Positions 7,908 to 58,690 of a stretch of 64,000 bases of DNA are shown piece by piece. The notes below the pieces were generated by a model. The model was not told the origin of the DNA and did not search any database. It worked only from the letters and a program-made list of their open reading frames with translations. Every line of letters starts with the position of its first letter. Position 1 is the first letter of the stretch. Source of the stretch: an uncultured Alphaproteobacteria bacterium (GTDB lineage Bacteria > Pseudomonadota > Alphaproteobacteria > Rhodobacterales > Rhodobacteraceae); the NCBI GenBank assembly GCA_963833235.1, contig CAWHXG010000004.1, positions 90,230-154,229 on the forward strand, in the 5' to 3' direction. Both the position numbers and the translations under genes were made by a program.

Positions 7908-8747
7908 CTAGCGGACGAGCTGCATGCGCGGGCGCAGTCGGATGCGGGCGGCCTGCGGCAGGTGGCGGTTCAGGCGCTTGTTGACCGCGCCGAAGAGGGT
8001 GATGACACACAACGTCAGCAGGATGAAGTAGCCCGCGACGATGGGGTAGGGGATGAAGGGGTTGAACGTCTTGTCAGCGAAGTAGCTGGCGTAGTAGAGC
8101 GCGTCGCCGCGCTGCTGCCAGGCCGGGAAGCCCGAGAAGAAGACGAGCGTCGTGGCGTGGAAGAGAAAGATCGCCTCGTTGGTATAGGCCGGCCAGGCGA
8201 GCCTCAGCATGGTGGGCCATGTCACGCGGCGGAACTTGACCCAGCCGGACATGCCGTAGGCCTCCGCCGCCTCCAGATCGCCCTTCGGGACGGAGCGGAG
8301 CGCGCCGTAGAAGATCTCGCCGGTATAGGCGGCGGTGTTGAGGAAGAGCACGATCAGCGCGCCGCCCCAGGCCCGGGTGAGCCAGCCCGTGTCGGCGTCA
8401 AAGGCCACGCCGAGGACGCTGAACTCGATGCCGCCGCGGGGCAACAGCACGAACGCCTCGTAGGCCAGGAAGAACTGGATGAAGAGCGGCGAGCCGCGGA
8501 AGACGAAGACGAACCATTCCGCGGGAAGCCGCGCCCAACGCGACGGCGCGGCCTTGCCGAGCGCCACCAGCGTGGCGAGGAAGAATCCGAGGGCCAGTGC
8601 GACGAGTCCGAAGTAGACGTTCCAGATCAGGCCGGAGCCGATCAGCACGAATTGCTCGCAGAGGGTGAAGTCGGACCGGGGCAGCAGCCGCTCGCCGATC
8701 CCGACGCTGCGCAGGGCATAGTCCTGGAATGTCTGGGCGCAGCTCAT
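7908..8747 (-). CDS. ABC transporter permease, polar amino acid/opine family (HisM/OccM-like)
   Basis: 279 aa, multi-TM, with an EAA-like loop ..EAAEAYGMSGWVKFRRVTWP.. Confidence 0.85.
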   Translation of the reverse strand: MSCAQTFQDYALRSVGIGERLLPRSDFTLCEQFVLIGSGLIWNVYFGLVALALGFFLATLVALGKAAPSRWARLPAEWFVFVFRGSPLFIQFFLAYEAFVLLPRGGIEFSVLGVAFDADTGWLTRAWGGALIVLFLNTAAYTGEIFYGALRSVPKGDLEAAEAYGMSGWVKFRRVTWPTMLRLAWPAYTNEAIFLFHATTLVFFSGFPAWQQRGDALYYASYFADKTFNPFIPYPIVAGYFILLTLCVITLFGAVNKRLNRHLPQAARIRLRPRMQLVR

Positions 8748-13744: not shown

Positions 13745-14261
13745 GCAGGCGGGGTCAGCCTCGGTCCGGCCGCAGGGATTGCAAAGGCTGGGAACGTTCA
13801 GGTGCGCCGTGCGACCTGAATTTCAAACGTGCGCCCTGCAGCTAGGTCAGGAGTACGAGGCCACGCCTGTTCACGTTCCTGCTGAGGGCGCCCGTTCTGG
13901 TTTCGAAGTGCCGCGCATGCAGATCCTTGAAGACCTCGAGGCCGATAAGGTCGACATGCCGCAGGTAGCTTAGGAAGGGTCCACTGCAGCCTGCGCGCGA
14001 TGCTGCACTGCCTCACCAAAAGGTATCATCAAACACCCGCGCTTCCGCCCGAACCACTATTTCGGCACAGCCCGCTCAATCGGGGTCATCCGCACCATGC
14101 GGCGGCGATCACCTCCGGCGCGGTCCGGCTGCTCGATGGCACGACGCGCCGCCGATGGCAAATCTGAGACCGGACCCGAGGCTATCCATCATTGTGACTG
14201 CCCACTTGCGAAAAGGGCCGGCACAAGGCCGACCCCAAAACTCACTACCTGATGAAAGCGC

Positions 14262-14438
14262 TCAGCTGTCGCCGCGCAGCTTGTCCTTCGCCTCGCCAAC
14301 ACCCTTCTGGATGCTGCCTTCGGCTTGGTCCGCATTGCCTTCGGCTTCCATGTCGTGGTTGCCGGTGGCCTTGCCGAACTCTTCCTTGGCCTTGCCGCCG
14401 GTCTTCTTCATCGAGCCTTTGATCTTGTCGTCGTCCAT
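14262..14438 (-). CDS. csbD: CsbD-family general stress protein
   Basis: MDDDKIKGSMKKTGGKAKEEFGKATGNHDMEAEGNADQAEGSIQKGVGEAKDKLRGDS; AGGAGG RBS 7 nt upstream of the ATG. Confidence 0.8.
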   Translation of the reverse strand: MDDDKIKGSMKKTGGKAKEEFGKATGNHDMEAEGNADQAEGSIQKGVGEAKDKLRGDS

Positions 14439-14462
14439 CTGTATGCCCTCCTGAGCTGGGTA

Positions 14463-14490
14463 GTAAACTTGCCGCCCGCTGACTTGTTCC
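14463..14490 (-). promoter_or_regulatory. Putative EcfG/SigT-type (alphaproteobacterial general stress sigma factor) promoter for csbD
   Basis: Reading in the csbD direction: GGAACA-AGTCAGCGGGCGGCAA-GTTTAC, which fits GGAAC-N17-GTT and ends ~25 nt upstream of the csbD ATG. Confidence 0.4.
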
Positions 14491-14753
14491 CTCATAAGTG
14501 GCGATCGCGCGGACGATTGCAGCAGATCCCGGCGCCGTCCCCCCGAATGCCCCGCGCAGGCAGCTTCTGCAGCCGGCCCGCACCAAAGCTCATACAGCCG
14601 AATGAGGGGGAGCCGGGGCTCGGTGACCGATCCGACCCGGAAGGGTGGATTTCTCTGCACCGATCCGCGACGGACCGCAACTTTCCGTTAACCATGACGT
14701 ACCTTGAGGTAGCGGTCGAATTACGCCCGCTTTCAATGAATGAGGGAGTGACG

Positions 14754-19104: not shown

Positions 19105-20400
19105 TCAGGCGTCGGCGGCCTCGGTCTTGTCGGCGATCCTTCGGCGCAGAAGGTCGATATGGACCCGTGCCGTGAAGGCGGCATCTCGGTAGGGCAGCGG
19201 CACGGAGAGGCTGGCGATCTCGCGATCCAGCCGCGCCAGGCGGGCCTTGATCTCGCCCAGCCGCTCGGGATCGCCGGTGGCGTAGACGGCATCCTCCAGT
19301 TCCCGCAGGGTGGCGTAGTGCAGGAACACCCGCCGCCGCATGCGCCATTGGTAGAGCCCGGGCAAGGTGCGCAGCAGCGGCAGAAGCAGGAAGACGATTG
19401 GCAGCAGCAGGATCGCGAAGCGGTTGACCTGAGCGACGACCCAGTAGGGCAGGAAGGATTGCAGCGGGCTCGGCCCGTCGGCCAGAAGGTCGCGGGCATA
19501 ACTGTCGGCGGGCAGGGCGGCGAACTCCATCGTAGGAAAATCGCCATCGTCGCTGATCGCGTCGCGGGGCCCGTGGATCTCGCGCGCCGCCTCGACAAGC
19601 CTGTCGACGAGCGACGGATGCAGACCCGGCTGGGCGCCCATCCGCGCGACGAGGGCCAGCATGTTCACGCTCTGCGCAGGGACGGGGGGCGCCAGCGAGA
19701 AGGCCCCCGAGGGCAGCGCGATGAGCGAGGATTGCGGCAGGCGGCGTGCCAGCGTCTCGATGTGGTCGAGCCGCAGCAGACTGGTCTGGTCGGAGGCGAA
19801 GAGCGGCAGCAGATAGGGCGCGCCGACCGGGGCCACGAAGATGGCCACGTCGGCCCGGCCGTCCAGCAGCGCCGCCGCCGCATCGCCACCGCCGAGGGGC
19901 AGGAACGTGTTGGCGCCGGGCGCGATGCCTGCGGCACCGGCGAAATCCATCATCGCCGCGCGCGTGCCACTGCCCTCTCCGCCCGCAGCGATCCGCAGGC
20001 CCCGCCATTGGCCGGCATTCGGGGGCACCACGCCGCCCGCCTGCACGAAGAAGAAGACCGGTTCCAGAAACAGCGAGCCAAGCGTCTCGATCGGACCGTC
20101 GGGGGTGATGCCGCCTTGCAGAAGCGCCACATCCGCCAGCCCCTCGCTCAACAGTCTGGCATTCTCGACCGAGCCGGCGGTGGTCAGCACCTCGACCGCG
20201 ATCCCGTCGCGCGCCAGGATCTCGGCGTAGCGCTGCGCGAGGGCGTTGTAGCCGCCGCCCTCGGCGCCCGACGCGAAGGTAAGCGACCGGGGCGGCAGCA
20301 AATCGCGGCTGAGCCACCAGAGGGCGGCGACCGCCGCGAGAAGGGCCAGCACGAAGAACAGGACGCGGACGATGGCGGCTCTCCCTGAGGGCGGGCCCAT
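19105..20400 (-). CDS. TAXI-family TRAP-type solute-binding protein homologue with C-terminal TM/coiled-coil extension
   Basis: ..[22 protein letters not shown]...[22 protein letters not shown].. matches TAXI SBP motifs, followed by a hydrophobic ..[16 protein letters not shown].. segment and a helical tail. Start MGPPSG (ATG 20398-20400); the rest of the 902-aa track ORF is antisense to rimK. Confidence 0.65.
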
Positions 20401-20538
20401 GCGGGCCTCGGGCAACGCTCTAAACGCTTCGGAGCCAAGGGGGCAAGGCGTTCGGCCGGTTGGGCGACCGGCCCGTGTCCCTCGCCATCCGCCGCGGAAT
20501 GTGCAGGATGGCACAAAACCGCAAGGAGAACGGACCGG

Positions 20539-21444
20539 ATGAAGATCGCAATGATGGCGCAGAACGCCAACCTCTACTCCCACAAGCGCATCAAGGAGGC
20601 CGCGGAGGCCAAGGGCCACACACTTGACATCATCAAGACGCTCGGCTGCTACATGAACATCGCGAGCCGGCGGCCGGACATCTACTACAACGGCGAGAAG
20701 CTGCCCCAGTATGACGCGGTGATCCCGCGCATCGGCGCCTCGGTCACATTCTACGGCCTCGCCGTTTTGCGGCAGTTCGAGATGCAGGGGGTCTATCCGC
20801 TGAACGAAAGCGTCGCCATCGGGCGTAGCCGCGACAAGCTGCGCTCCATGCAGCTGATGGCGCGCGACGGGATCGGCCTGCCGGTGACCACCTTCGCCCA
20901 TGACCCGAAGCAGACCGAGGAGGTGCTGAAGATCGCCGGCGGCGCGCCCACGGTCATCAAGCTGCTCGAAGGCACGCAGGGCATCGGGGTGGTGCTGGCC
21001 GACACCGACCGCAGCGCCAAGTCGGTGATCGAGGCGTTCCGGGGCGCCAACGTCAACATCATGGTGCAGGAATTCATCAAGGAGGCCGGCGGTACCGACA
21101 TCCGGGCGCTGGTGATCGGTGGCAAGGTGATCGCCGCGATGAAGCGCACAGGGGCGGAGGGGGAGTTCCGCTCCAACCTGCACCGTGGCGGATCGGCGGC
21201 GACGATCAAGATCAGCCCCGAGGAACGCTCCACCGCCATACGGGCGGCGAAGTCGATGGGCCTGAACGTCTGCGGCGTCGACATGCTGCGCGCCAATCAC
21301 GGCCCGGTGGTGATGGAGGTGAACTCTTCTCCCGGGCTGGAAGGCGTCGAGAAGGCGACCGGCATCGACGTGGCCGGCAAGATCATCGAGTACCTGGAAA
21401 GCCACGCCAAGCCCGGCAAGACCAAGACGCGCGGGGCCGGCTGA
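20539..21444 (+). CDS. rimK: RimK-family alpha-L-glutamate ligase (ATP-grasp)
   Basis: [27 protein letters not shown]...; ATP-grasp motifs ..[15 protein letters not shown].., ..[28 protein letters not shown].. Confidence 0.85.
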
Positions 21445-21487: not shown

Positions 21488-22567
21488 ATGCCGGAGACGA
21501 AGGGCAAGCCGGCGGCCAAAGCAATGACAGGCCGGCCTTCCTTCCAGATCGGGCATCGCTCGGTCGCGGCGGGCGCGCGGCAGACGATCGAGCTGCCGGT
21601 GAGCGTGCTGTCGGACCACACGCCGATCACGCTTTCGGTGCACGTGGTGCATGGCCGCCGCCCGGGGCCGACGATGTTCGTGAGCGCCGCGATCCACGGC
21701 GACGAGGTGATCGGGGTAGAGATCGCGCGGCGGCTGATGAAGGCCGAGGCGCTCGACACGATGAAGGGCACGCTGATGATCGCGCCCATCGTCAACACGT
21801 TCGGGTTCCTCAACCATTCGCGCTACCTGCCCGACCGGCGCGACCTCAACCGCTCTTTCCCCGGCAGCCCGCGCGGCTCGCTGGCCTCGCGTCTGGCGGA
21901 CCTCTTCATGACCGAGATCGTCAAGCGTTCGGATCTGGGGATCGACCTGCATTCCGCTGCGATCCACCGCACCAACCTGCCGCAGATCCGCGTCTCGCCC
22001 TCCAAGGAGGCGACCGTGGCGCTGGCCGACGCCTTCGGCGCGCCGTTGGTGCTGACCGCTCCCCTGCGCGACGGCAGCCTGCGGATGGCGGCGCAGAAGG
22101 AAGGCGTGGACATGCTGCTCTACGAGGCGGGGGAGGGCCTGCGGTTCGATGAGATGGCGGTGCGCGCCGGGGTCTCCGGCTGCCTGCGGGTGATGCGGGA
22201 GCTGGGGATGGTGACCGGCAAGGGCACCGCGCGCCGGTCCGCAGCACCCATGCACGCGACGTCGAGCCACTGGGTGCGCTCGCCGGCCGGGGGGCTCCTG
22301 CGGGCGTTCATGGGCACGGGCGCAATGGCGGCGAAGGGCGACGTGCTGGGCATCGTCTCGGACCCGTTCGGCGAGGTGGAGCGCGAGGTGACGGCACCGG
22401 GGCCGGGGCTGGTGATCGGGCGGACGAACCTGCCCATCGTCAACGAGGGCGACGGGCTGTTTCATCTGGCGACTTTGGCGCGGCCGAAGGGGGCGGAGGA
22501 CGCGATCGAGACGCTGGAGGATCAGCTGGCGGCGGATCCGTTGTTCGATGAGGATGAGATTATTTGA
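21488..22567 (+). CDS. Succinylglutamate desuccinylase/aspartoacylase (AstE/AspA) family zinc hydrolase; RimK-associated type
   Basis: ..FVSAAIHGDEVIGVEIARRL.. (zinc-binding HxxE region), ..DLNRSFPG.., ..DLHSAAIHRTNLPQIRV..; 43 bp downstream of rimK. Confidence 0.8.
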   Translation: MPETKGKPAAKAMTGRPSFQIGHRSVAAGARQTIELPVSVLSDHTPITLSVHVVHGRRPGPTMFVSAAIHGDEVIGVEIARRLMKAEALDTMKGTLMIAPIVNTFGFLNHSRYLPDRRDLNRSFPGSPRGSLASRLADLFMTEIVKRSDLGIDLHSAAIHRTNLPQIRVSPSKEATVALADAFGAPLVLTAPLRDGSLRMAAQKEGVDMLLYEAGEGLRFDEMAVRAGVSGCLRVMRELGMVTGKGTARRSAAPMHATSSHWVRSPAGGLLRAFMGTGAMAAKGDVLGIVSDPFGEVEREVTAPGPGLVIGRTNLPIVNEGDGLFHLATLARPKGAEDAIETLEDQLAADPLFDEDEII

Positions 22568-23514
22568 AAATGCGTGTGGCGCAGTCAAGTAACAAGCCGG
22601 GAACTTTACCCCCAATCAGCGAATCAAAGTAGCGACCTTTGGCTTCGCCATTTAAGGGTACATCGGGGCGAATCTAAACCTGCAAAAATAACGCTCTATA
22701 AGAGAGAGGAAGACCTTTTCGATGAACTGGTCAACGGCAAAAGTTATATTTATAGAATACATTAGTGACAGCTTTTCGTACATCATTGTTTTGGCTTTGG
22801 AGTGGCAAACGCTTATAGCAGGTTTGATTGCGCTCGTTGCCGCAATGTGGACGATAAGAACTATGCGGCGACAAGCGTTGGACGAGGACGGCCGTCATAA
22901 AGACCTCATGCGTCGTAAGAAAATGGCGGCCCGAGCGCGGATGCCGGATGCCCTAAGTGAAGTTTCCAGGTACGTCAAAGAAATGGGGTGCCATCTATTA
23001 CTTGCTGGTTCCGAAGGCGCTATAGGGAAGAAGCCAAGCCCTCCAATTGCAGGCATAAATTCATTGCAACAGGTAATTGAGCATATCGACAATGAAGCCG
23101 CAGAAAGAACTTTCGAATTAGTTTCGTGGTATCAGGTGCAGAGAACGCGGACCGCTGACGGAATTGACCCTCTATTGGCGGTTCAACCGATTTACGACCT
23201 CGTTTTACTTCAAGCTTATGTCAATAGCCTGTTCGACTATGCGAGAAACGAGGACTCCGCTGAGCCAATCACCATGCTATCAATCCCCGAGATGTTTAAC
23301 GCGATACAGACGGCATTCTTGCTGCCAAGACAACACCAGAATCCAGAGATATTCAATAAACTGAAGGAAAAAATAGATCGCGATCATTCACGTTAAGGAG
23401 TTCGAGGCCTTTAATCGTAAAGCTATCGGTATTGTATTTGTAAGTCGTCGATGGGCGCGGATCTGTTTTTTGAACGGGCGAAACAGAATTTCCTGTCTCG
23501 CTACGTTTGATGCT
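22568..23514. other. Low-GC (~30-45%) genomic islet of ~950 bp between convergent gene ends, against a ~68% GC background
   Basis: Abrupt compositional shift visible by eye (e.g. aagttatatttatagaatacattagtgacagcttttcgtacatcattgttttgg). It is bounded exactly by the stop of the AstE-like gene (22567) and the stop of the M42 peptidase gene (23515). Confidence 0.75.
22722..23396 (+). CDS. Orphan hypothetical protein (224 aa) with N-terminal TM helix; no recognisable domain
   Basis: MNWSTAKVIFIEYISDSFSYIIVLALEWQTLIAGLIALVAAMWTIRTMRRQALDEDG...; AT-rich codon usage foreign to this genome; GAGGAAGA RBS ~8 nt upstream of the ATG. Confidence 0.6.
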   Translation: MNWSTAKVIFIEYISDSFSYIIVLALEWQTLIAGLIALVAAMWTIRTMRRQALDEDGRHKDLMRRKKMAARARMPDALSEVSRYVKEMGCHLLLAGSEGAIGKKPSPPIAGINSLQQVIEHIDNEAAERTFELVSWYQVQRTRTADGIDPLLAVQPIYDLVLLQAYVNSLFDYARNEDSAEPITMLSIPEMFNAIQTAFLLPRQHQNPEIFNKLKEKIDRDHSR

Positions 23515-24553
23515 TCAAACCCCCCGCAAATAAGCCGCCAGCACATCCCGCGCCGCCGCCAGGTCTCCCTTGTCGGCCATCTCCGTCACCGTGTGGATGT
23601 ACCGCGTGCCCACCACGATCCCCACGGCCCGGGCGCCCGCCGCCGCCTGCTGGGCCGCGGCGCCGTCCTGGCCTCCGGCGCGGAGCATGGTGCGCTGGTA
23701 GGGGATGCCCTCGCGCTCGGCCAGGGCCGCGAATTCGGCCACCAGCGCGCGGTCGGCGATGAAGCTGCTGTCGCGCACGTGCAGGCCGAACCCCTTGCCC
23801 TGTTCGGTCGTGCGGTCCTGCTCCGGCACGCCGGGGGTGTCGCAGGCGAGCGTCGTGTCGATGCCGATGCCGATGTCGGGCCTCACCGCGAAGGCCGCCG
23901 TGCGGGCGCCGCGCAGGCCCACCTCCTCCTGCGCGGTGAAGGCCACGTGCACCTCCGCCGGGCCGCGGTGGTCGCCGAGCGCGCGGATCGCCTCGATCCC
24001 CAGCCAGCAGGCGATGCGGTTGTCCATCGCCTTGCTCACCAGCTTGCCGCCCATCTCCATGAACGGCGCATCGAGGACCACCATGTCGCCCACCTGCACA
24101 TGATCCTTCGCCTCCGCTCCCATGCCGATGTCGATGACGAACTCGTGCACCTCGGGGATCTTCTTGCGGTCCTCGGGGCTGGAGATGTGGATCGGGCGGC
24201 CGGCCGGGGTTCATGACGCCCGGCAGGTCGCCGCCCTCGGTGCAGACCAGCACGCGGCGCGAGAAGAGGTTGCGCGCGTCGAAGCCGCCGACGGCCTGGA
24301 CGTGGATGAAGCCCTTGTCTGTGATGTGACTGACAAGAAAGCCGATCTCGTCCATGTGGCAAAGCAGCATGACCTTCAACGGGGTCTCGACCGAACCGTC
24401 GCCGTCGCGGCGACAAAGGAGCGAGCCCATCGGGTCGGTGCGCACCTCGTCGAAGAGCCCCTCGATCTCGGCTTCGATCAGCGCGCGGACGCGGTGCTCG
24501 TGCCCGGGCACGCCTGGGGTTTCGCAAAGGCGGCGCAGCAGGTCGATGTTCAT
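23515..24553 (-). pseudogene. M42-family metallo-aminopeptidase (FrvX/YsdC-like) interrupted by a +1 frameshift near 24195
   Basis: N-terminal part (MNIDLLRRLCETPGVPGHEH...LLCHMDEIGFLVSH...GDLPGVM) lies in the 23501..24721 frame; the C-terminal part (..IHISSPEDRKKIPEVHEFVIDIGMGAE...) is in the 23515..24150 frame. Removing one C in ..ccggccgcccgat.. restores the consensus GVMNPGRPPIHIS. Confidence 0.75.
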
Positions 24554-55280: not shown

Positions 55281-57875
55281 ATGCAGAAGCGCGCCACCCT
55301 CCGCGAGTTCACCGAGATCACGGGCGGCGCGCCGATCATCGTCGGGCAGCACGGGCGCCGCGCAAAGACCCTGCAGCGCCTGATCGGTCTTGGCCTGCCG
55401 GTGCCGCGCAGCGTCGCGCTCAGCTTCGAGACGGTGCAGGCCATCGCGGCCGGCAACATGCCGGACCTGCCGCGCCTCCTGTCGCATTTCGGCGCGACAC
55501 CCCTGGTCTCCGTGCGCCCCAGTTCGGAAGATCCCGATTGGGGCGGGCCGGCGGCGGTGCTGAACATCGGCATGAACGACGCCCGCCATGCCGCCATGGC
55601 CGCCGACAAGGGCGACAGGGTGGCCAGCGCGCTCTACCTGCGGTTCATCCGCAGCTACGCGGTGCAGGTGGCGCGGCTGGATGCCGACCCGTTCGACATT
55701 CCCGGCCCACCCTCTTCGGACGCCGTGGCCGCCGCCCTCGTCGCCTTCGACACCGAGACCGAGACGCCCTTTCCCCAGGATCCCGCCACGCAGCTTTCCG
55801 GCGTCCTGCGGGCCACCGCGCGGGCTTGGTCGGGCACCAGCGCGCGGCTGCTGCGGGAGGCGCGGGGCGCACCCGCGGATGCCGGGCTGGGGCTGATCGT
55901 CCAGTCGATGGCGCTCGGCGTGGGCGCGCCCGAAAGCGGCTCGGGCGTGATGCAGTTCGTCGATGCCGGCACCGGGCGGGCGCAGATCACCGGGCGCTAT
56001 CTAAGCCAGAGCCAGGGGCGCGATGCGCTTGGCGGCCCGGGCGGCGCTGGCAAGGGCGCGATCTACCTCACCCGCGATCCCCGGGGGCCGGCGCTGGAGG
56101 GTCTGGCGCCCGGGCTCTTCGCCCAGCTCAAAGGTTTCGGCGCGCTCTGCCGCAAGGCGCTGCGCGACGAGGTGCAGATCACCTTCACCATAGAAGCAGG
56201 CGCACTGAGCGTGCTCGATGCCGTGCGCGTCCGCCGGAGCGCCCGGGCCGGCCTCGCCATCGCCGTGGCGCTGGCCGAGGACGGCATCATCGGGCGCGAC
56301 GCCGCGTTGATGCGGGTGGAGCCGCGGGCGCTCACCGAGCTTCTGCACCGCGCCGTCGATCCAGGTGCGGCGCGCGCGGTCCTGCTTCGGGGCATGGCCG
56401 CCAGCCCCGGGGCCGCCATCGGCCGGGTCGTCTTCTCGTCGGCCGCCGCCCAGGCCGCGGCGGCGCATGGCGAGGCGTGCATCCTGGTGAAGCGCGAGAC
56501 CGCGCCGGAGGACGTGCGCGGCATGCATGCGGCCACCGGCGTGCTGACCGAGCGGGGCGGCATGTCAAGCCACGCGGCGGTGATCGCCCGCGGCCTTGGC
56601 GTGCCCTGCGTTGTGGGGGCCACCGAGTTGCGGATCGACCTGCGCCAGAACCTCGCGCATCTACCGGGCGGCCGGACCTTGCGGGAGGGAGAGACAGTGA
56701 CCCTCGACGGGAGCGCGGGAGAGGTGCTGGAGGGCGCCGTGGCCACGCTGGAGCCGGCCCTCGATACGGCCTTCGAGACGCTTCTGGGCTGGGCCGACGA
56801 CCGGCGCGACATCGGCGTGCGCGCCAATGCCGACACGCCTGCCGAGGCACAGATCGCCCATCGATTCAAGGCGGAGGGCATCGGGCTGTGCCGGACGGAG
56901 CACATGTTCTTCGCCGAGGAACGCCTGACCGTAATGCGCGAGATGATCTTCGCCGACCGCACCGAGGGCCGATCGGATGCGCTGCGGCAGTTGCTGCCGA
57001 TGCAGCGCAGCGATTTCACGCGGATCTTCCAAATCATGGCGGGCAAGCCGGTGTGCCTGCGGCTGCTCGACCCGCCGCTGCATGAATTCCTGCCACGCGA
57101 CCGGGCTGGCATCCTGGAGCTGGCGGCGTCGATCGGCCGGCCGGCGTCGGAGGTGACCCGGCGGATCGAGGCGATGGCGGAGTTCAATCCGATGCTGGGC
57201 CTGCGCGGCGTGCGGCTTGGCCTGACCGTGCCGGAGATCTACGACATGCAGGCCCGCGCGATCTTCGAGGCAGCGCTGGACGTCGGCGGCGATCCGGCAT
57301 GGGAGGGGCCGCCGGTGGTGCCCGAGATCATGATCCCGCTGGTCTCGGCCCGCCGCGAGGTGGAGATTGTGAAGGCGCGGATCACGCGGATCGCGGCCGC
57401 CGTGCAGGCCGAGCGCGGCGCCGGCCTGGAGTACCGTCTGGGCGTGATGGTGGAGACCCCGCGCGCCGTTCTGAAGGCCGACGAGATCGCCGCCCATTGC
57501 GCATTTCTCAGCTTCGGCACGAACGACCTGACGCAGATGACCTATGGCCTGTCGCGCGACGACGCGGCCCGGTTCATGGGCGATTACGTGCGGCAGGGGG
57601 TATTCGACGAGGATCCCTTCCACGTGCTGGACCGCGACGGGGTGGGCGAGCTGCTGACGATGGGTGCCGTGCGGGGCAGGCGCGGGCAGCCGGGCATCAC
57701 GCTGTCGGTCTGCGGCGAGCATGGCGGCAACGCCGAGAGCATCGCCTTCTGCCGGGAGGCGGGATTCGATTACGTCTCGTGCTCGCCCTACAGGGTGCCT
57801 TTGGCGCGGCTGGCGGCGGGCCGACTTGCGCTGAAATCCGCTGATCCGGATTACCCCGACAACCGACTGGCCTGA
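55281..57875 (+). CDS. ppdK: Pyruvate, phosphate dikinase (PEP-utilising enzyme family)
   Basis: 864 aa; N-terminal ATP-grasp-like ..GLGLPVPRSVALSFETVQ..; phosphohistidine domain ..GGMSSHAAVIARGLGVPCVVGA..; C-terminal PEP/pyruvate TIM barrel ..CGEHGGNAESIAFCREAGFDYVSCSPYRVPLARLAA.. Confidence 0.85.
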   Translation: MQKRATLREFTEITGGAPIIVGQHGRRAKTLQRLIGLGLPVPRSVALSFETVQAIAAGNMPDLPRLLSHFGATPLVSVRPSSEDPDWGGPAAVLNIGMNDARHAAMAADKGDRVASALYLRFIRSYAVQVARLDADPFDIPGPPSSDAVAAALVAFDTETETPFPQDPATQLSGVLRATARAWSGTSARLLREARGAPADAGLGLIVQSMALGVGAPESGSGVMQFVDAGTGRAQITGRYLSQSQGRDALGGPGGAGKGAIYLTRDPRGPALEGLAPGLFAQLKGFGALCRKALRDEVQITFTIEAGALSVLDAVRVRRSARAGLAIAVALAEDGIIGRDAALMRVEPRALTELLHRAVDPGAARAVLLRGMAASPGAAIGRVVFSSAAAQAAAAHGEACILVKRETAPEDVRGMHAATGVLTERGGMSSHAAVIARGLGVPCVVGATELRIDLRQNLAHLPGGRTLREGETVTLDGSAGEVLEGAVATLEPALDTAFETLLGWADDRRDIGVRANADTPAEAQIAHRFKAEGIGLCRTEHMFFAEERLTVMREMIFADRTEGRSDALRQLLPMQRSDFTRIFQIMAGKPVCLRLLDPPLHEFLPRDRAGILELAASIGRPASEVTRRIEAMAEFNPMLGLRGVRLGLTVPEIYDMQARAIFEAALDVGGDPAWEGPPVVPEIMIPLVSARREVEIVKARITRIAAAVQAERGAGLEYRLGVMVETPRAVLKADEIAAHCAFLSFGTNDLTQMTYGLSRDDAARFMGDYVRQGVFDEDPFHVLDRDGVGELLTMGAVRGRRGQPGITLSVCGEHGGNAESIAFCREAGFDYVSCSPYRVPLARLAAGRLALKSADPDYPDNRLA

Positions 57876-57955
57876 AACGGAAAAGTCCGGTCTATCGGAG
57901 CGCCTGCACAGCTTATCCACAGGCTGAACGCGGCGGCTCGGCCTGCCGGTTTGCG

Positions 57956-57971
57956 TTTACCCTTTGTTAAC
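57956..57971 (+). promoter_or_regulatory. Possible CtrA-type box (TTTA-N7-TTAAC) upstream of the SleB-like hydrolase gene
   Basis: TTTACCCTTTGTTAAC lies ~45 bp upstream of the ATG at 58016; one mismatch to TTAA-N7-TTAAC. Confidence 0.2.
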
Positions 57972-58015
57972 TAGTAGCTCTGTGTCGGTTTGGGGACGAG
58001 AGGTATTTTGGAGTT

Positions 58016-58690
58016 ATGCGGCAACTGAAATTGATTGCGATCACAGCTATTCTTGCAGGAGCGGCTGCCGCCGCCTCTGCCGACATCACACTCAGCACAT
58101 CGAACGATCCCGAGGCCGGCTTCGGCGCCGCCCTGACGGAGCGGTTCGGTCATGACAGGTGGACGACCGGAACGGCGAATTCGCCGCGCCTGGTCAGGCT
58201 GGTCGACGTTCCGCGCCCGAAGCGGCGCAGCGAACTGCGCTTCACCCGGGAGTGGCTGGCCGAGCAGCCGGCGCCCCGCGCCAGCGCGCCCCTGCAATGC
58301 CTGGCGGAGGCATTGTATTTCGAGGCGCGGGGGGAAAGCGTACGCGGTCAGTTCGCAGTGGCGGAGGTGATCCTGAACCGGGTCGCCTCGAAGGCTTATC
58401 CCAACACCGTCTGTGGGGTGATCGAGCAGGGGACCGGCCGGAAATATGCCTGCCAATTCACCTATACCTGCGACGGGCATCCCGAGCACATCCGCGAGAA
58501 GGGGGCCTGGCTCTCGGTGAAGAAGGTGGCGCGGGCCGTTCTGGATGGCCTGCCGCGTCGGCTGACGAACGGCGCAACGCATTACCACACCAATCAAGTC
58601 AATCCCTACTGGGCGCAGGTCTTCGACCGCACGACGACGATCGGGGTGCATCATTTCTATCGCAGTTCGGTGCAGACGGCGAACCGCTGA
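58016..58690 (+). CDS. Cell wall hydrolase, SleB-like (Hydrolase_2 family)
   Basis: Signal peptide MRQLKLIAITAILAGAAAAASA; ..LAEALYFEARGESVRGQFAVAEVILNRVASKAYPNTVCGVIEQ...QFTYTCDG.. Confidence 0.8.
   Translation: MRQLKLIAITAILAGAAAAASADITLSTSNDPEAGFGAALTERFGHDRWTTGTANSPRLVRLVDVPRPKRRSELRFTREWLAEQPAPRASAPLQCLAEALYFEARGESVRGQFAVAEVILNRVASKAYPNTVCGVIEQGTGRKYACQFTYTCDGHPEHIREKGAWLSVKKVARAVLDGLPRRLTNGATHYHTNQVNPYWAQVFDRTTTIGVHHFYRSSVQTANR

What the first reader, a model, noticed from the sequence alone, without database searches (positions are those of the whole stretch)
22568..23514. Low-GC islet carrying a single orphan membrane-protein gene between two convergent genes
The ~950 bp between the stop of the AstE/AspA-family gene (22567) and the stop of the M42 peptidase gene (23515) drops from the ~68% GC background to far lower GC (~30% in sampled stretches). 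It has AT-rich codon usage that no other gene in the window shares. It encodes one 224-aa protein (22722..23396) with an N-terminal transmembrane helix and a charged helical cytoplasmic domain; I cannot match it to any family I know. There is no integrase, transposase, tRNA or obvious direct repeat, so this looks like a compact, recently acquired single-gene cargo. Single-gene cargos of this shape are often phage-defence, abortive-infection, toxin or immunity proteins. It is the strongest candidate in the window for something undescribed. It may be relevant that the flanking genes, rimK with its AstE-like partner and a frameshifted M42 aminopeptidase, are a peptide-ligase/hydrolase neighbourhood
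Basis: partly seen in the sequence, partly recalled or inferred. Interest (0 to 1): 0.8.

Follow-up and report, generated by a model that had tools for sequence, protein, structure and literature searches.

The report
Foreign single-gene membrane-protein cassette
A 0.95-kb stretch of foreign, AT-richer DNA between two native genes carries one intact gene for a small inner-membrane protein from a widespread but undescribed family; the family travels on prophages, plasmids and defence islands, so it is a testable candidate phage- or plasmid-exclusion factor whose function has not been shown.

Summary
The islet is real but less extreme than reported. GC is 0.467 over 22568-23514 against 0.690 for the window; ~30% holds only in 60-bp patches. 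The gene's GC3 is 0.49 against 0.89-0.94 in its neighbours. An independent assembly confirms both junctions.

The 224-aa ORF is not an orphan. It has 68 homologues at 40-51% identity and matches 648 protein clusters. No Pfam, NCBIfam, PHROGs or PADLOC model covers it, and a UniRef 'DUF4760' label could not be reproduced.

A confident AlphaFold model (pLDDT 92) shows one N-terminal TM helix (N-out/C-in) and a cytoplasmic helical bundle of generic fold. The TM helix is the most conserved segment, and the family is under purifying selection (dN/dS 0.09-0.21).

Relatives have no fixed partner. They sit:
- in prophages in moron positions;
- on Rhizobiaceae plasmids;
- in integrase-bearing islands beside type I, II and III-like restriction-modification genes, OLD/AAA_15 ATPases, HEPN (DUF4209) proteins and toxin-antitoxin pairs;
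- alone, as ~1-kb low-GC inserts between housekeeping genes, as here.

Best reading: a horizontally acquired, moron-like cassette. A stand-alone membrane exclusion or abortive-infection role is inferred from context only.

The parts
22568..23514 (.). Low-GC islet (947 bp) filling the gap between two convergent native genes: AstE/AspA-family gene (stop at 22567) and M42 peptidase gene (stop at 23515).
   Evidence: GC is 0.467 against 0.690 for the window, the lowest 947-bp stretch in the window. By a flank-relative threshold the low-GC patch spans 22559-23484. The AstE C-terminus DPLFDEDEII is conserved in all orthologues, so the native gene is intact and the foreign DNA starts after its stop. 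An independent contig, L001, confirms both junctions.
22722..23396 (+). Gene for a 224-aa bitopic inner-membrane protein of an uncurated family (stop codon included).
   Evidence: ORF. 68 homologues at 40-51% identity and 648 clusters at E<=1e-3. It retains all 23 residues (beyond the start Met) that are conserved in at least 75% of 127 diverse members. Family dN/dS is 0.09-0.21. GC3 0.49, CAI 0.19.
22701..22712 (+). Shine-Dalgarno-like AGAGAGAGGAAG, 9 nt upstream of the ATG.
   Evidence: Read directly from the sequence. No consensus sigma-70 promoter was found on the + strand of the 154-bp upstream spacer, so the promoter is unidentified.
22800..22859 (+). Codons 27-46: the transmembrane helix (EWQTLIAGLIALVAAMWTIR), the most conserved segment of the family.
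   Evidence: Hydropathy maximum 2.2 at residues 21-39. Mean top-residue frequency is 0.61 against 0.43-0.48 for the bundle helices. W28, Q29, T30, L31, A37, A41 and T44 are each conserved in at least 85% of members. T30/34/A37/A41/T44/48/Q51 fall within a 100-degree arc of the helix. K+R counts are 0.7 before and 3.0 after the helix, giving N-out/C-in in 118 of 127 members.
22860..23393 (+). Codons 47-224: basic juxtamembrane helix continuing into a cytoplasmic 4-5-helix bundle.
23470..23510 (.). Hairpin (core GCGAAACAG / CTGTCTCGC, 23478-23501) in the 118-bp spacer between the two convergent stops; candidate shared terminator.
   Evidence: Found by ViennaRNA folding, but the spacer does not fold better than shuffled sequence (z -0.45 to -1.2), and only a weak U-tract follows on the + strand. 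Weak evidence.

Best explanation
The 947-bp islet is a horizontally acquired, moron-like one-gene cassette. It landed in the terminator gap between two convergent native genes, where it disrupts nothing.

It encodes a bitopic inner-membrane protein with three parts:
- a short periplasmic N-terminus;
- one TM helix;
- a basic juxtamembrane helix that runs straight into a cytoplasmic 4-5-helix bundle.

The protein belongs to an uncurated family of at least about 650 clusters at 50% identity; the closer relatives that carry names are all alphaproteobacterial. The family is under purifying selection and circulates as accessory cargo of prophages, plasmids and integrase-bearing defence islands.

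Most likely mechanism (inferred, not shown): the protein works alone at the cytoplasmic membrane. The conserved small/polar face of its TM helix (T30, A37, A41, T44) mediates self-association or binding to a membrane partner. The cytoplasmic bundle acts as the sensing or blocking module. The outcome would be exclusion of incoming phage or plasmid DNA, or an abortive-infection response.

What is shown and what is inferred:
- Shown: foreign composition, intact conserved gene, family distribution and contexts, purifying selection.
- Predicted from the model and sequence statistics: topology and fold.
- Inferred: expression in this host, membrane self-association, and any protective phenotype.
For: Foreign origin:
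- GC 0.467 against 0.690, GC3 0.49 against about 0.91, CAI 0.19 against 0.69-0.83.
- Sporadic distribution: 16 loci among 185,579 species genomes.
- No neighbour is shared among the 16 genome loci, and a census of 128 flanking ORFs shows no recurrent partner.
- Across 31 loci the gene's GC is below its flanks (mean -0.073, Wilcoxon p 1.4e-6). In hosts with GC of 0.64 or more, the low-GC patch is one gene long, 725-1125 bp.

Moron layout in relatives:
- L017: a 1-kb patch at GC 0.43, in opposite orientation, between the large terminase and a lambda-type portal.
- L024: at the end of the tail module, beside the tape-measure gene.
- 10 IMG/VR viral contigs carry relatives.

Defence or MGE company:
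- Type I R-M operon, with the family gene's start overlapping the preceding stop.
- MvaI/BcnI endonuclease plus methylase plus integrase.
- N6/N4 methylase, ResIII helicase, AAA_15 and integrase.
- HATPase_c_3, Methyltransf_35 and C5 methylase.
- KAP NTPase, caspase-like protein, DUF4238 and methylases.
- OLD-type AAA_15-TOPRIM, Prim-Pol and integrase.
- ParB-like nuclease, ParDE and AAA_13.
- DUF4209, a HEPN family.
- Eight Rhizobiaceae plasmids.

Functional protein:
- dN/dS 0.09-0.21.
- All conserved residues are retained in the window copy.
- The P0066 lone copy recurs with the same neighbourhood in many samples.

TM helix is more than an anchor: it is the most conserved segment and the conserved residues lie on one face.

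Precedent: moron-encoded inner-membrane proteins that block phage DNA entry, namely HK97 gp15 and P22 SieA (PMC3594210; PMC10883804).
Against: - No experiment, and no homology to any characterised exclusion, Abi or defence protein. PADLOC, PHROGs, Pfam and NCBIfam are all negative, even over 127 diverse members.
- The fold is a generic helical bundle and implies no specific function.
- No formal enrichment test against a background gene set was run. The association rests on about 17 annotated contexts.
- Five of those contexts, including the window, are lone inserts with no defence neighbour.
- None of 50,697 sequenced phage records carries the gene.
- No promoter was identified upstream of the window copy.
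- The empty site could not be examined.
- With most of the protein cytoplasmic and only about 10-25 residues periplasmic, a direct block of a periplasm-spanning injection conduit is not obvious.
Confidence: 0.45

Rival explanations
1. The gene is accessory cargo with a non-defence role. Examples would be a lysogenic-conversion or host-physiology factor (envelope stress, membrane homeostasis, a signalling adaptor), or a conjugative entry-exclusion protein. It travels with MGEs, and its proximity to defence genes only reflects shared integration hotspots.
For: Morons encode many kinds of host-benefit functions (PMC3594210). Five contexts are lone inserts between housekeeping genes, and one of them is stably kept across many samples. 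Eight copies are on plasmids. The fold resembles 4-helix-bundle sensor and adaptor domains. No defence HMM matches.
Against: The gene adjoins at least three different R-M types, OLD/AAA_15 ATPases, HEPN proteins and TA pairs in independent lineages. That pattern is typical of defence genes. None of the plasmid copies examined lies next to T4SS or transfer genes.
Confidence: 0.27
2. The gene is a leftover of a degraded prophage or island, or a holin-like lysis or phage-development protein. It would have no current function in this host and would simply not yet be deleted.
For: Relatives occur in prophages. 18 of 40 members give weak hits to Phage_holin_10 (best E 5e-4). No promoter was recognised upstream. 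The neighbouring M42 gene carries a frameshift, so the region tolerates decay.
Against: The ORF is intact and keeps every family-conserved residue. The holin hits cover only the TM residues and score about 16 bits against a 27-bit cut-off. In prophages the gene sits in moron positions in opposite orientation, not in lysis cassettes. The islet edges coincide exactly with the native stop codons and no other foreign remnant is present. The family is mostly outside phages and under purifying selection.
Confidence: 0.1
3. The gene is an old, native gene whose low GC is maintained by selection (an amelioration-resistant region), not by recent transfer.
For: The family's GC sits around 0.39-0.60 whatever the host GC, and it is AT-richer than its surroundings even inside prophages. 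This could reflect a constraint on the sequence itself. No close relative of the source genome is available to show an empty site.
Against: Only 16 of 185,579 species genomes carry the family, in unrelated positions. The nearest homologue is only 50% identical. The nearest genomes that share the rimK-astE operon have gaps of 60 and 16 bp, and other genes, at this position. GC3 of 0.49 against 0.91 affects silent sites and both non-coding spacers equally.
Confidence: 0.05
4. The gene is a solitary toxin or addiction module, for example a membrane-depolarising toxin whose antitoxin is a small RNA or an unrecognised small ORF in the islet.
For: It is a membrane protein with a conserved TM face. 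TA pairs are nearby in L023 and L045. In L021 and L022 a 165-aa 2-TM partner gene overlaps its start.
Against: There is no partner ORF in the window islet, no Rfam hit and no structured RNA signal in the spacers. Most loci have no conserved small neighbour.
Confidence: 0.05
5. The islet is an assembly chimera or contamination artefact.
For: The source appears to be a draft or metagenome-type assembly (386-kb contig). A frameshift lies nearby.
Against: An independent Logan assembly contig spans both junctions with 1 mismatch in 2,053 bp. The islet edges fall exactly at two stop codons.
Confidence: 0.02

Closest known systems
Phage morons (prototype: the gene 15 element of phage HK97; Juhala/Hendrix definition, reviewed in PMC3594210)
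   Same: A roughly 1-kb unit with one gene. Its composition differs from its surroundings. It is inserted between genes that are otherwise adjacent, often in opposite orientation, and is spread horizontally. The L017 relative lies between large terminase and portal, and the L024 relative at the tail-module end. Homologues also occur outside prophages, as described for gp15/YebO.
   Different: The window copy is not in a prophage; it sits between two chromosomal housekeeping genes. Its own promoter and terminator are not demonstrated. There is no sequence relationship to gp15/YebO.
Inner-membrane superinfection-exclusion proteins (P22 SieA, HK97 gp15, Lactococcus Tuc2009-type Sie; PMC10883804, PMC3594210)
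   Same: Small, stand-alone, MGE-borne inner-membrane proteins that need no partner. SieA also has a conserved motif on its cytoplasmic side.
   Different: No detectable homology. SieA has three TM helices in 162 aa, whereas this family has one TM helix plus a roughly 175-aa cytoplasmic helical bundle. No exclusion phenotype is known for this family.
Pfam DUF4760 (PF15956), the label UniRef attaches to two family members
   Same: As far as I recall (not checked here), DUF4760 proteins are also small MGE-associated proteins with an N-terminal TM segment. One is listed in a Serratia genomic island next to integrases (PMC9964261).
   Different: No member, including the two labelled proteins, matches the current Pfam model even at E<=10.
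Single-TM phage holins (Pfam Phage_holin_10, Pam3 gp28 family)
   Same: An N-terminal TM helix followed by a basic stretch. 18 of 40 members give weak HMM hits.
   Different: The hits cover only the TM residues and fall below the gathering score (about 16 against 27 bits). The protein is 3-4 times longer, is not in lysis cassettes, and mostly lies outside phages.
Four/five-helix up-down bundles (talin rod domains, 4HB sensor domains of chemoreceptors and histidine kinases)
   Different: Identity is 4-12%, and Foldseek is not significant. The predicted orientation is inverted (cytoplasmic, not periplasmic) and there is no second TM helix or output domain. This is a generic fold and not evidence of homology.

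Membership tests
Pfam DUF4760 (PF15956) | Match to the Pfam HMM at or above the gathering score | tested here: not met
   The window protein has no hit at E<=10. DUF4760 is not among the families listed for the 40 close members (top 25 of 41 shown) and is absent from all 17 families matched by the 127 diverse members. The two UniRef-labelled proteins, P0014 and P0046, have no DUF4760 hit at E<=10.
Phage holins (Phage_holin_10 / holin superfamilies) | HMM match above the gathering score | tested here: not met
   In the members scanned individually the best score is 16 bits against a cut-off of 27, aligned only to TM residues about 17-42. The best E-value among 40 members is 5e-4.
Phage holins (Phage_holin_10 / holin superfamilies) | Located in a lysis cassette next to an endolysin | tested here: not met
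   In prophage L024 the gene lies beside the tape-measure gene. In L017 it lies between large terminase and portal. No endolysin neighbour was seen among 128 flanking ORFs (only the top 25 families listed).
Phage moron (Juhala/Hendrix) | Extra gene inserted between two genes that are adjacent in related phages | tested here: inconclusive
   Met for relative L017, between large terminase and lambda-type portal in opposite orientation. The window copy is chromosomal, between convergent native genes, so the definition applies only by analogy.
Phage moron (Juhala/Hendrix) | Nucleotide composition different from the surrounding genome | tested here: met
   Window: -0.22 GC relative to flanks. L017: -0.24. 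L033 and L034: -0.15. Over 31 loci the mean is -0.073, p 1.4e-6.
Phage moron (Juhala/Hendrix) | Independent transcription unit with its own promoter and terminator | tested here: inconclusive
   A good Shine-Dalgarno is present. There is no consensus sigma-70 promoter on the + strand. A 3' hairpin exists but is not better than shuffles. In 9 of 13 contexts with called or annotated genes the downstream gene is convergent, consistent with a terminal position.
Membrane superinfection-exclusion proteins (SieA, gp15/YebO, Sie2009 types) | Sequence homology to a characterised Sie protein | tested here: not met
   The window protein has no PHROGs or Pfam match. Among 127 members the only PHROGs hit is one marginal match to an unnamed family.
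Membrane superinfection-exclusion proteins (SieA, gp15/YebO, Sie2009 types) | Inner-membrane localisation | tested here: inconclusive
   Predicted only: hydropathy 2.2, positive-inside rule in 118 of 127 members, long TM helix in the AF2 model. No fractionation data.
Membrane superinfection-exclusion proteins (SieA, gp15/YebO, Sie2009 types) | Expression blocks DNA entry of superinfecting phage without affecting adsorption | not testable with these tools
   Requires phage challenge together with K+ efflux or DNA-entry assays.
Known anti-phage defence systems (PADLOC-DB v2.0.0) | Match to a defence-system protein HMM | tested here: not met
   The window protein has no hit at E<=10. Among 127 members there are three single marginal hits to unrelated models at E 5e-4 to 8e-4.
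Defence-island gene (guilt-by-association criterion) | Recurrent location next to known defence genes in unrelated genomes | tested here: inconclusive
   Qualitatively met. R-M genes lie within 5 kb in 5 independent contexts. OLD/AAA_15, HEPN-DUF4209, TA or AAA_13 genes occur in 4 more. No background-corrected enrichment statistic could be computed, and 5 contexts are lone inserts.
Integron gene cassette | attC recombination site (GTTRRRY / RYYYAAC cores in an imperfect palindrome) at the 3' end of the ORF | tested here: not met
   Three core-motif hits against 2.1 expected by chance, all inside the ORF and none in the 118-bp 3' spacer. No integrase was seen among the four flanking genes scanned.

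The most novel reading that the evidence does not exclude
The family is a new single-protein, membrane-acting anti-phage or anti-MGE system. It would work through a conserved TM interaction face coupled rigidly to a cytoplasmic helical bundle. Its roughly 1-kb AT-rich gene unit would be a self-contained 'moron' that moves between phages, plasmids, defence islands and bare chromosomal terminator gaps without any recombinase of its own.
Probability: 0.3. Interest if true: 0.65.

Novelty: new variant of a known kind. Interest (0 to 1): 0.5.

Why it matters
If the inferred role holds, this would be a new one-gene, membrane-level exclusion or abortive-infection family. It is common in rhizobia and roseobacter-group bacteria, where few defence systems have been tested.

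Its design is unusual: one highly conserved TM helix joined to a cytoplasmic helical bundle, with no enzymatic motif. That would have to work by protein-protein contact at the membrane.

The repeated appearance of the same roughly 1-kb AT-rich unit is also a clean natural example of moron-type gene flow beyond phage genomes. The unit is found inside a phage head-gene block, at the end of R-M operons, and in bare gaps between convergent chromosomal genes.

If the inference fails, the finding is still a well-defined uncurated protein family that merits a database model. The window locus itself would then be an ordinary case of horizontally acquired accessory DNA.

Tried and rejected
- Curated family assignment. 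Pfam, NCBIfam, PHROGs and PADLOC searches on the protein and on 40 or 127 relatives gave only weak TM-driven hits. The 'DUF4760' label was not reproducible.
- Empty-site comparison. The nearest AstE-like orthologue is 77% identical and downstream synteny differs (GGT or DUF6868 gene, gaps of 60 and 16 bp), so no true empty site exists in the data.
- Conserved partner gene. All-against-all comparison of ORFs in 16 loci found none. The 165-aa 2-TM upstream gene is confined to L021/L022, and the DUF4209 gene to L015/L022/L023.
- Mobility signatures. No tRNA. No attC core in the spacer.
- Flanking direct repeat. D1 (22527-22548 / 23452-23473, 17 of 22 identical) is about what chance gives by my estimate (roughly 0.4 expected). 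The left copy lies inside the conserved native AstE C-terminus. I rejected it as a target-site duplication.
- Non-coding RNA or riboswitch in the spacers. No Rfam hit, and folding was no better than shuffles.
- Sequenced phages. No tblastn hit in 50,697 records.
- IMG/VR search with the diverse alignment A2. It failed for lack of a conserved stretch and was repeated with A1.
- Link to the rimK/AstE/M42 neighbourhood. Rejected, because neighbours differ everywhere else.
Full report
OBSERVATION

The stretch 22568-23514 is a genuine compositional islet.
- Its GC is 0.467 against 0.690 for the whole window. It is the lowest 947-bp stretch in the window, more than 6 sd below the mean, and the only place where 500-bp windows fall below 0.60.
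- Both non-coding spacers (0.474 and 0.458) are as AT-rich as the ORF (0.467).
- The ORF's GC3 is 0.49 against 0.89-0.94 in RimK, the AstE-like gene, M42 and the Na/H exchanger. Its CAI against those genes is 0.19 against 0.69-0.83.
- The islet's edges coincide with two stop codons. The AstE/AspA-family gene ends at 22567, and its C-terminus DPLFDEDEII is conserved in every orthologue examined, so the native gene is intact. The M42 peptidase gene on the minus strand ends at 23515.
- An independently assembled Logan contig (L001) reproduces window 21961-24013 with one mismatch, so the junctions are not an assembly artefact.
- The window has no tRNA. The islet has no Rfam match, no attC core in the 3' spacer and no convincing flanking repeat. 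The best candidate, 17 of 22 identical at 22527 and 23452, is about what chance gives by my estimate, and its left copy lies inside conserved native coding sequence.

THE GENE AND ITS FAMILY

The islet holds one ORF, 22722-23396 (+), 224 aa, preceded by a GAGAGGAAG Shine-Dalgarno 9 nt upstream.

It is not an orphan.
- A search of 5.8 billion proteins returns 68 relatives at 40-51% identity; those that carry names come from Rhizobiales and Rhodobacterales.
- An exhaustive HMMER scan of 1.84 billion cluster representatives finds 648 clusters at E<=1e-3 and 137 at E<=1e-10. Nearly all are 200-260 aa.

No curated model covers the family.
- Pfam, NCBIfam, PHROGs and PADLOC give nothing for the window protein.
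- Scans of 40 close and 127 diverse members give only sub-threshold hits confined to the TM segment.
- UniRef labels two members 'DUF4760', but neither matches that Pfam model even at E<=10.

The family encodes a functional protein.
- dN/dS is 0.09-0.21 for the pairs where dS is not saturated.
- The window copy retains all 23 residues (beyond the start Met) that are conserved in at least 75% of 127 diverse members.

STRUCTURE

AlphaFold2 with the 40-sequence alignment gives a confident model (pLDDT 92, pTM 0.78). One helix runs from residue 3 to 94, followed by helices 109-121, 124-145, 154-174, 188-198, 201-206 and 208-221.
- The hydrophobic maximum is at residues 21-39.
- K+R counts are 0.7 in the 15 residues before the TM helix and 3.0 after it, and 118 of 127 members follow this pattern. 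The predicted topology is therefore N-out/C-in, with the bundle in the cytoplasm.
- Foldseek finds nothing significant in the PDB or in BFVD.
- No enzymatic motif is conserved. The invariant polar residues are Q29, T30, Q51, R71, Q138, R143, D159 and R175.
- The TM helix is the most conserved segment of the family, with a mean top-residue frequency of 0.61 against 0.43-0.48 for the bundle helices. T30, position 34, A37, A41, T44, position 48 and Q51 lie within a 100-degree arc. A simple membrane anchor would not be conserved in this way. I infer a specific intramembrane contact, either self-association or a membrane partner.

WHERE THE FAMILY LIVES

Distribution is sporadic: 16 loci in one-genome-per-species GTDB (185,579 species), all in Alphaproteobacteria. 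No neighbouring gene is shared among them. A Pfam census of 128 flanking ORFs in 23 loci shows no recurrent partner; it finds resolvase (3), AAA_21 (3), integrase (2), phage portal, terminase and tape measure, a SWI2/SNF2-YgjP-methylase set, and housekeeping genes.

Annotated contexts fall into four groups.

(i) Prophage
- Mesorhizobium L024: the gene lies at the end of the tail module beside the TMP_3/VanY tape measure, convergent on it.
- Loktanella L017: a 1-kb patch at GC 0.43, in opposite orientation, between the large terminase and a lambda-type portal.
- 10 IMG/VR viral contigs carry relatives, yet none of 50,697 sequenced phage records does.

(ii) Plasmids
- Eight Rhizobiaceae plasmids carry a copy.
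- On S. meliloti pSINME01 the gene lies near TA pairs and an integrase, with a DUF4209 gene downstream.
- On two other plasmids a 165-aa 2-TM gene overlaps its start.
- DUF4209 is a predicted HEPN RNase family that 'occurs in R-M related operons' (PMC3710099).

(iii) Integrase-bearing or defence-type islands
- R. wuzhouense: the gene's start overlaps the stop of the YgjP-like gene that closes an hsdM-hsdS-hsdR operon.
- The closest relative, P0002: next to MvaI/BcnI endonuclease, C5 methylase and integrase.
- P0031: next to N6/N4 methylase, ResIII helicase, AAA_15 and integrase.
- P0004: 55 bp after a HATPase_c_3, Methyltransf_35 and C5 methylase block.
- P0057: among KAP NTPase, caspase-like, DUF4238 and methylase genes.
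- Ruegeria: next to an integrase, with Prim-Pol/VapE and an OLD-type AAA_15-TOPRIM.
- P0042: near a ParB-like nuclease, ParDE and AAA_13.

(iv) Lone inserts between housekeeping genes, as in the window
- L002: between a response regulator and an HD protein.
- L013: between a hydrolase and an ABC permease.
- L010: between an ABC transporter and an autotransporter (for these three).
- P0066: between an M20 peptidase and DctM, with the same neighbourhood in many samples.

Two further regularities:
- Across 31 loci the gene's GC is lower than its flanks in 20, equal in 9 and higher in 2 (mean -0.073, Wilcoxon p 1.4e-6). In hosts with GC of 0.64 or more, the low-GC patch is always about one gene long, 725-1125 bp.
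- In 9 of 13 contexts with called or annotated genes the next gene downstream is convergent, so the gene tends to sit at the end of a transcription unit.

INTERPRETATION

Three things are well supported (about 0.9):
- The islet is horizontally acquired accessory DNA.
- It consists of a single intact gene.
- That gene belongs to a family whose natural habitat is mobile elements and defence-type islands.

The unit behaves like a phage moron as defined in the literature: an independent, compositionally distinct gene unit spread horizontally, with homologues outside prophages (PMC3594210). In the window it occupies a chromosomal terminator gap, not a phage genome.

The function is an inference (about 0.4). 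I favour a stand-alone membrane-level protection against incoming phage or plasmid DNA, by exclusion or abortive infection. The grounds are:
- the company the gene keeps;
- its stand-alone nature;
- the conserved TM face;
- the precedent of moron-encoded inner-membrane exclusion proteins such as HK97 gp15 and P22 SieA.

Against this:
- No homology to any known defence or exclusion protein.
- A generic fold.
- No formal enrichment statistic.
- Five lone contexts.
- No recognisable promoter upstream of the window copy.
- A mostly cytoplasmic mass, which makes a direct block of a periplasmic injection conduit less obvious.

Rivals:
- Another accessory function, such as envelope physiology or entry exclusion: about 0.27.
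- An inert prophage or island remnant, or a holin-like protein: about 0.1.
- An ancient native gene: about 0.05.
- A solitary toxin: about 0.05.
- An assembly artefact: about 0.02.

- The suggestion that the rimK/AstE/M42 'peptide-ligase/hydrolase neighbourhood' matters is not supported, because neighbours differ in every other locus.
- The proposed empty-site test cannot be done. The nearest AstE-like orthologue is 77% identical (an Inquilinaceae MAG), and the nearest genomes have a GGT or a DUF6868 gene 60 or 16 bp downstream instead of M42.
- Its refutation criterion, that the ORF matches a well-characterised family, is not met.
- Its other refutation criterion, the same sequence at the same site in related high-GC genomes, could not be evaluated.

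NOVELTY AND SCORE

The kind of thing is known: a foreign single-gene cassette encoding an MGE-borne membrane protein. The family is uncurated and uncharacterised, and its architecture differs from known exclusion proteins, so I rate it a new variant of a known kind.

Interest is 0.5. It is a clean, experimentally tractable candidate with some unusual features. Many uncharacterised defence-island genes exist, however, and nothing here yet shows a new mechanism.

Noticed in passing
window 23515-24553 (-), frameshift at about 24195-24208: The M42 glutamyl aminopeptidase gene is split between two reading frames. The N-terminal part reads '...GGDLPGVMNPGRP', and the C-terminal part continues in another frame as 'AGRPIHISSPEDRKKIPEVHEFVIDIG...'. 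The switch lies in a CCCCGGCCGGCCGCC stretch. It is either a real pseudogene or a sequencing or assembly indel. The Logan contig L001 does not reach this position.
   Followed up: partly
L021 6511-7008 and L022 6480-6971 (upstream of the family gene): On Rhizobium phaseoli and Agrobacterium pusense plasmids, a 163-165-aa hypothetical protein with two hydrophobic segments overlaps the start of the family gene. The two copies are 60% identical. It looks like a two-gene operon and is absent from the window and from all other loci fetched up to that point.
   Followed up: partly
L023 7727-9634; L015 10693-12543; L022 7689-9005 (interrupted by IS21): A DUF4209 protein lies 76-92 bp downstream of the family gene, in the same orientation, in three Rhizobiaceae loci. 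DUF4209 is a predicted HEPN RNase family reported in R-M related operons. This may be a membrane protein plus HEPN pair in that sub-lineage.
   Followed up: partly
L048 1451-8678: In Rhizobium wuzhouense W44 the family gene's start codon overlaps the stop of a YgjP-like metallopeptidase gene that closes a type I R-M operon (hsdM-hsdS-hsdR-ygjP). The operon sits in an island with a resolvase and a DUF6538-type integrase, which suggests co-transcription with the R-M system.
   Followed up: no
window 22527-22548 and 23452-23473: A 22-nt direct repeat, 17 of 22 identical, brackets the islet with 925-bp spacing. The left copy is inside the conserved native 3' end of the AstE-like gene. I judged it consistent with chance, but it is the only candidate junction repeat.
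   Followed up: yes
window 20184-20627, compared with L018 4543-5061 and L020 4547-5032: In the nearest genomes a RimB-like gene (PF05618) directly precedes rimK. In the window no plus-strand ORF of comparable size lies upstream of rimK (20539); the upstream space is taken by minus-strand coding sequence. The rimB-rimK-astE operon therefore seems to be truncated or rearranged here. Not checked with an HMM.
   Followed up: no
window about 14150-14500 and 57750-58150: Two further mild GC dips (0.58-0.59 in 300-bp windows, against the 0.69 background) are the only other compositional departures in the window. They are far weaker than the islet and were not examined.
   Followed up: no
L027-L029 (P0066) 8001-8651: A lone family member sits 88 bp from an M20 peptidase gene and 4 bp from a DctM TRAP transporter gene in a Hyphomicrobiales lineage. 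The same neighbourhood was recovered in the 24 contigs read, and the index lists the protein in 54 collection blocks. It appears to be a stably kept chromosomal copy. The peptidase neighbour echoes the window's M42 gene but is probably coincidence.
   Followed up: no
13 contexts with called or annotated genes: window, L021-L024, L026, L027, L030, L041, L044-L046, L048: In 9 of these 13 contexts the gene immediately downstream of the family gene is on the opposite strand (convergent), sometimes overlapping its 3' end by 25-76 bp (L024, L030). The gene tends to occupy the terminal position of a transcription unit.
   Followed up: partly
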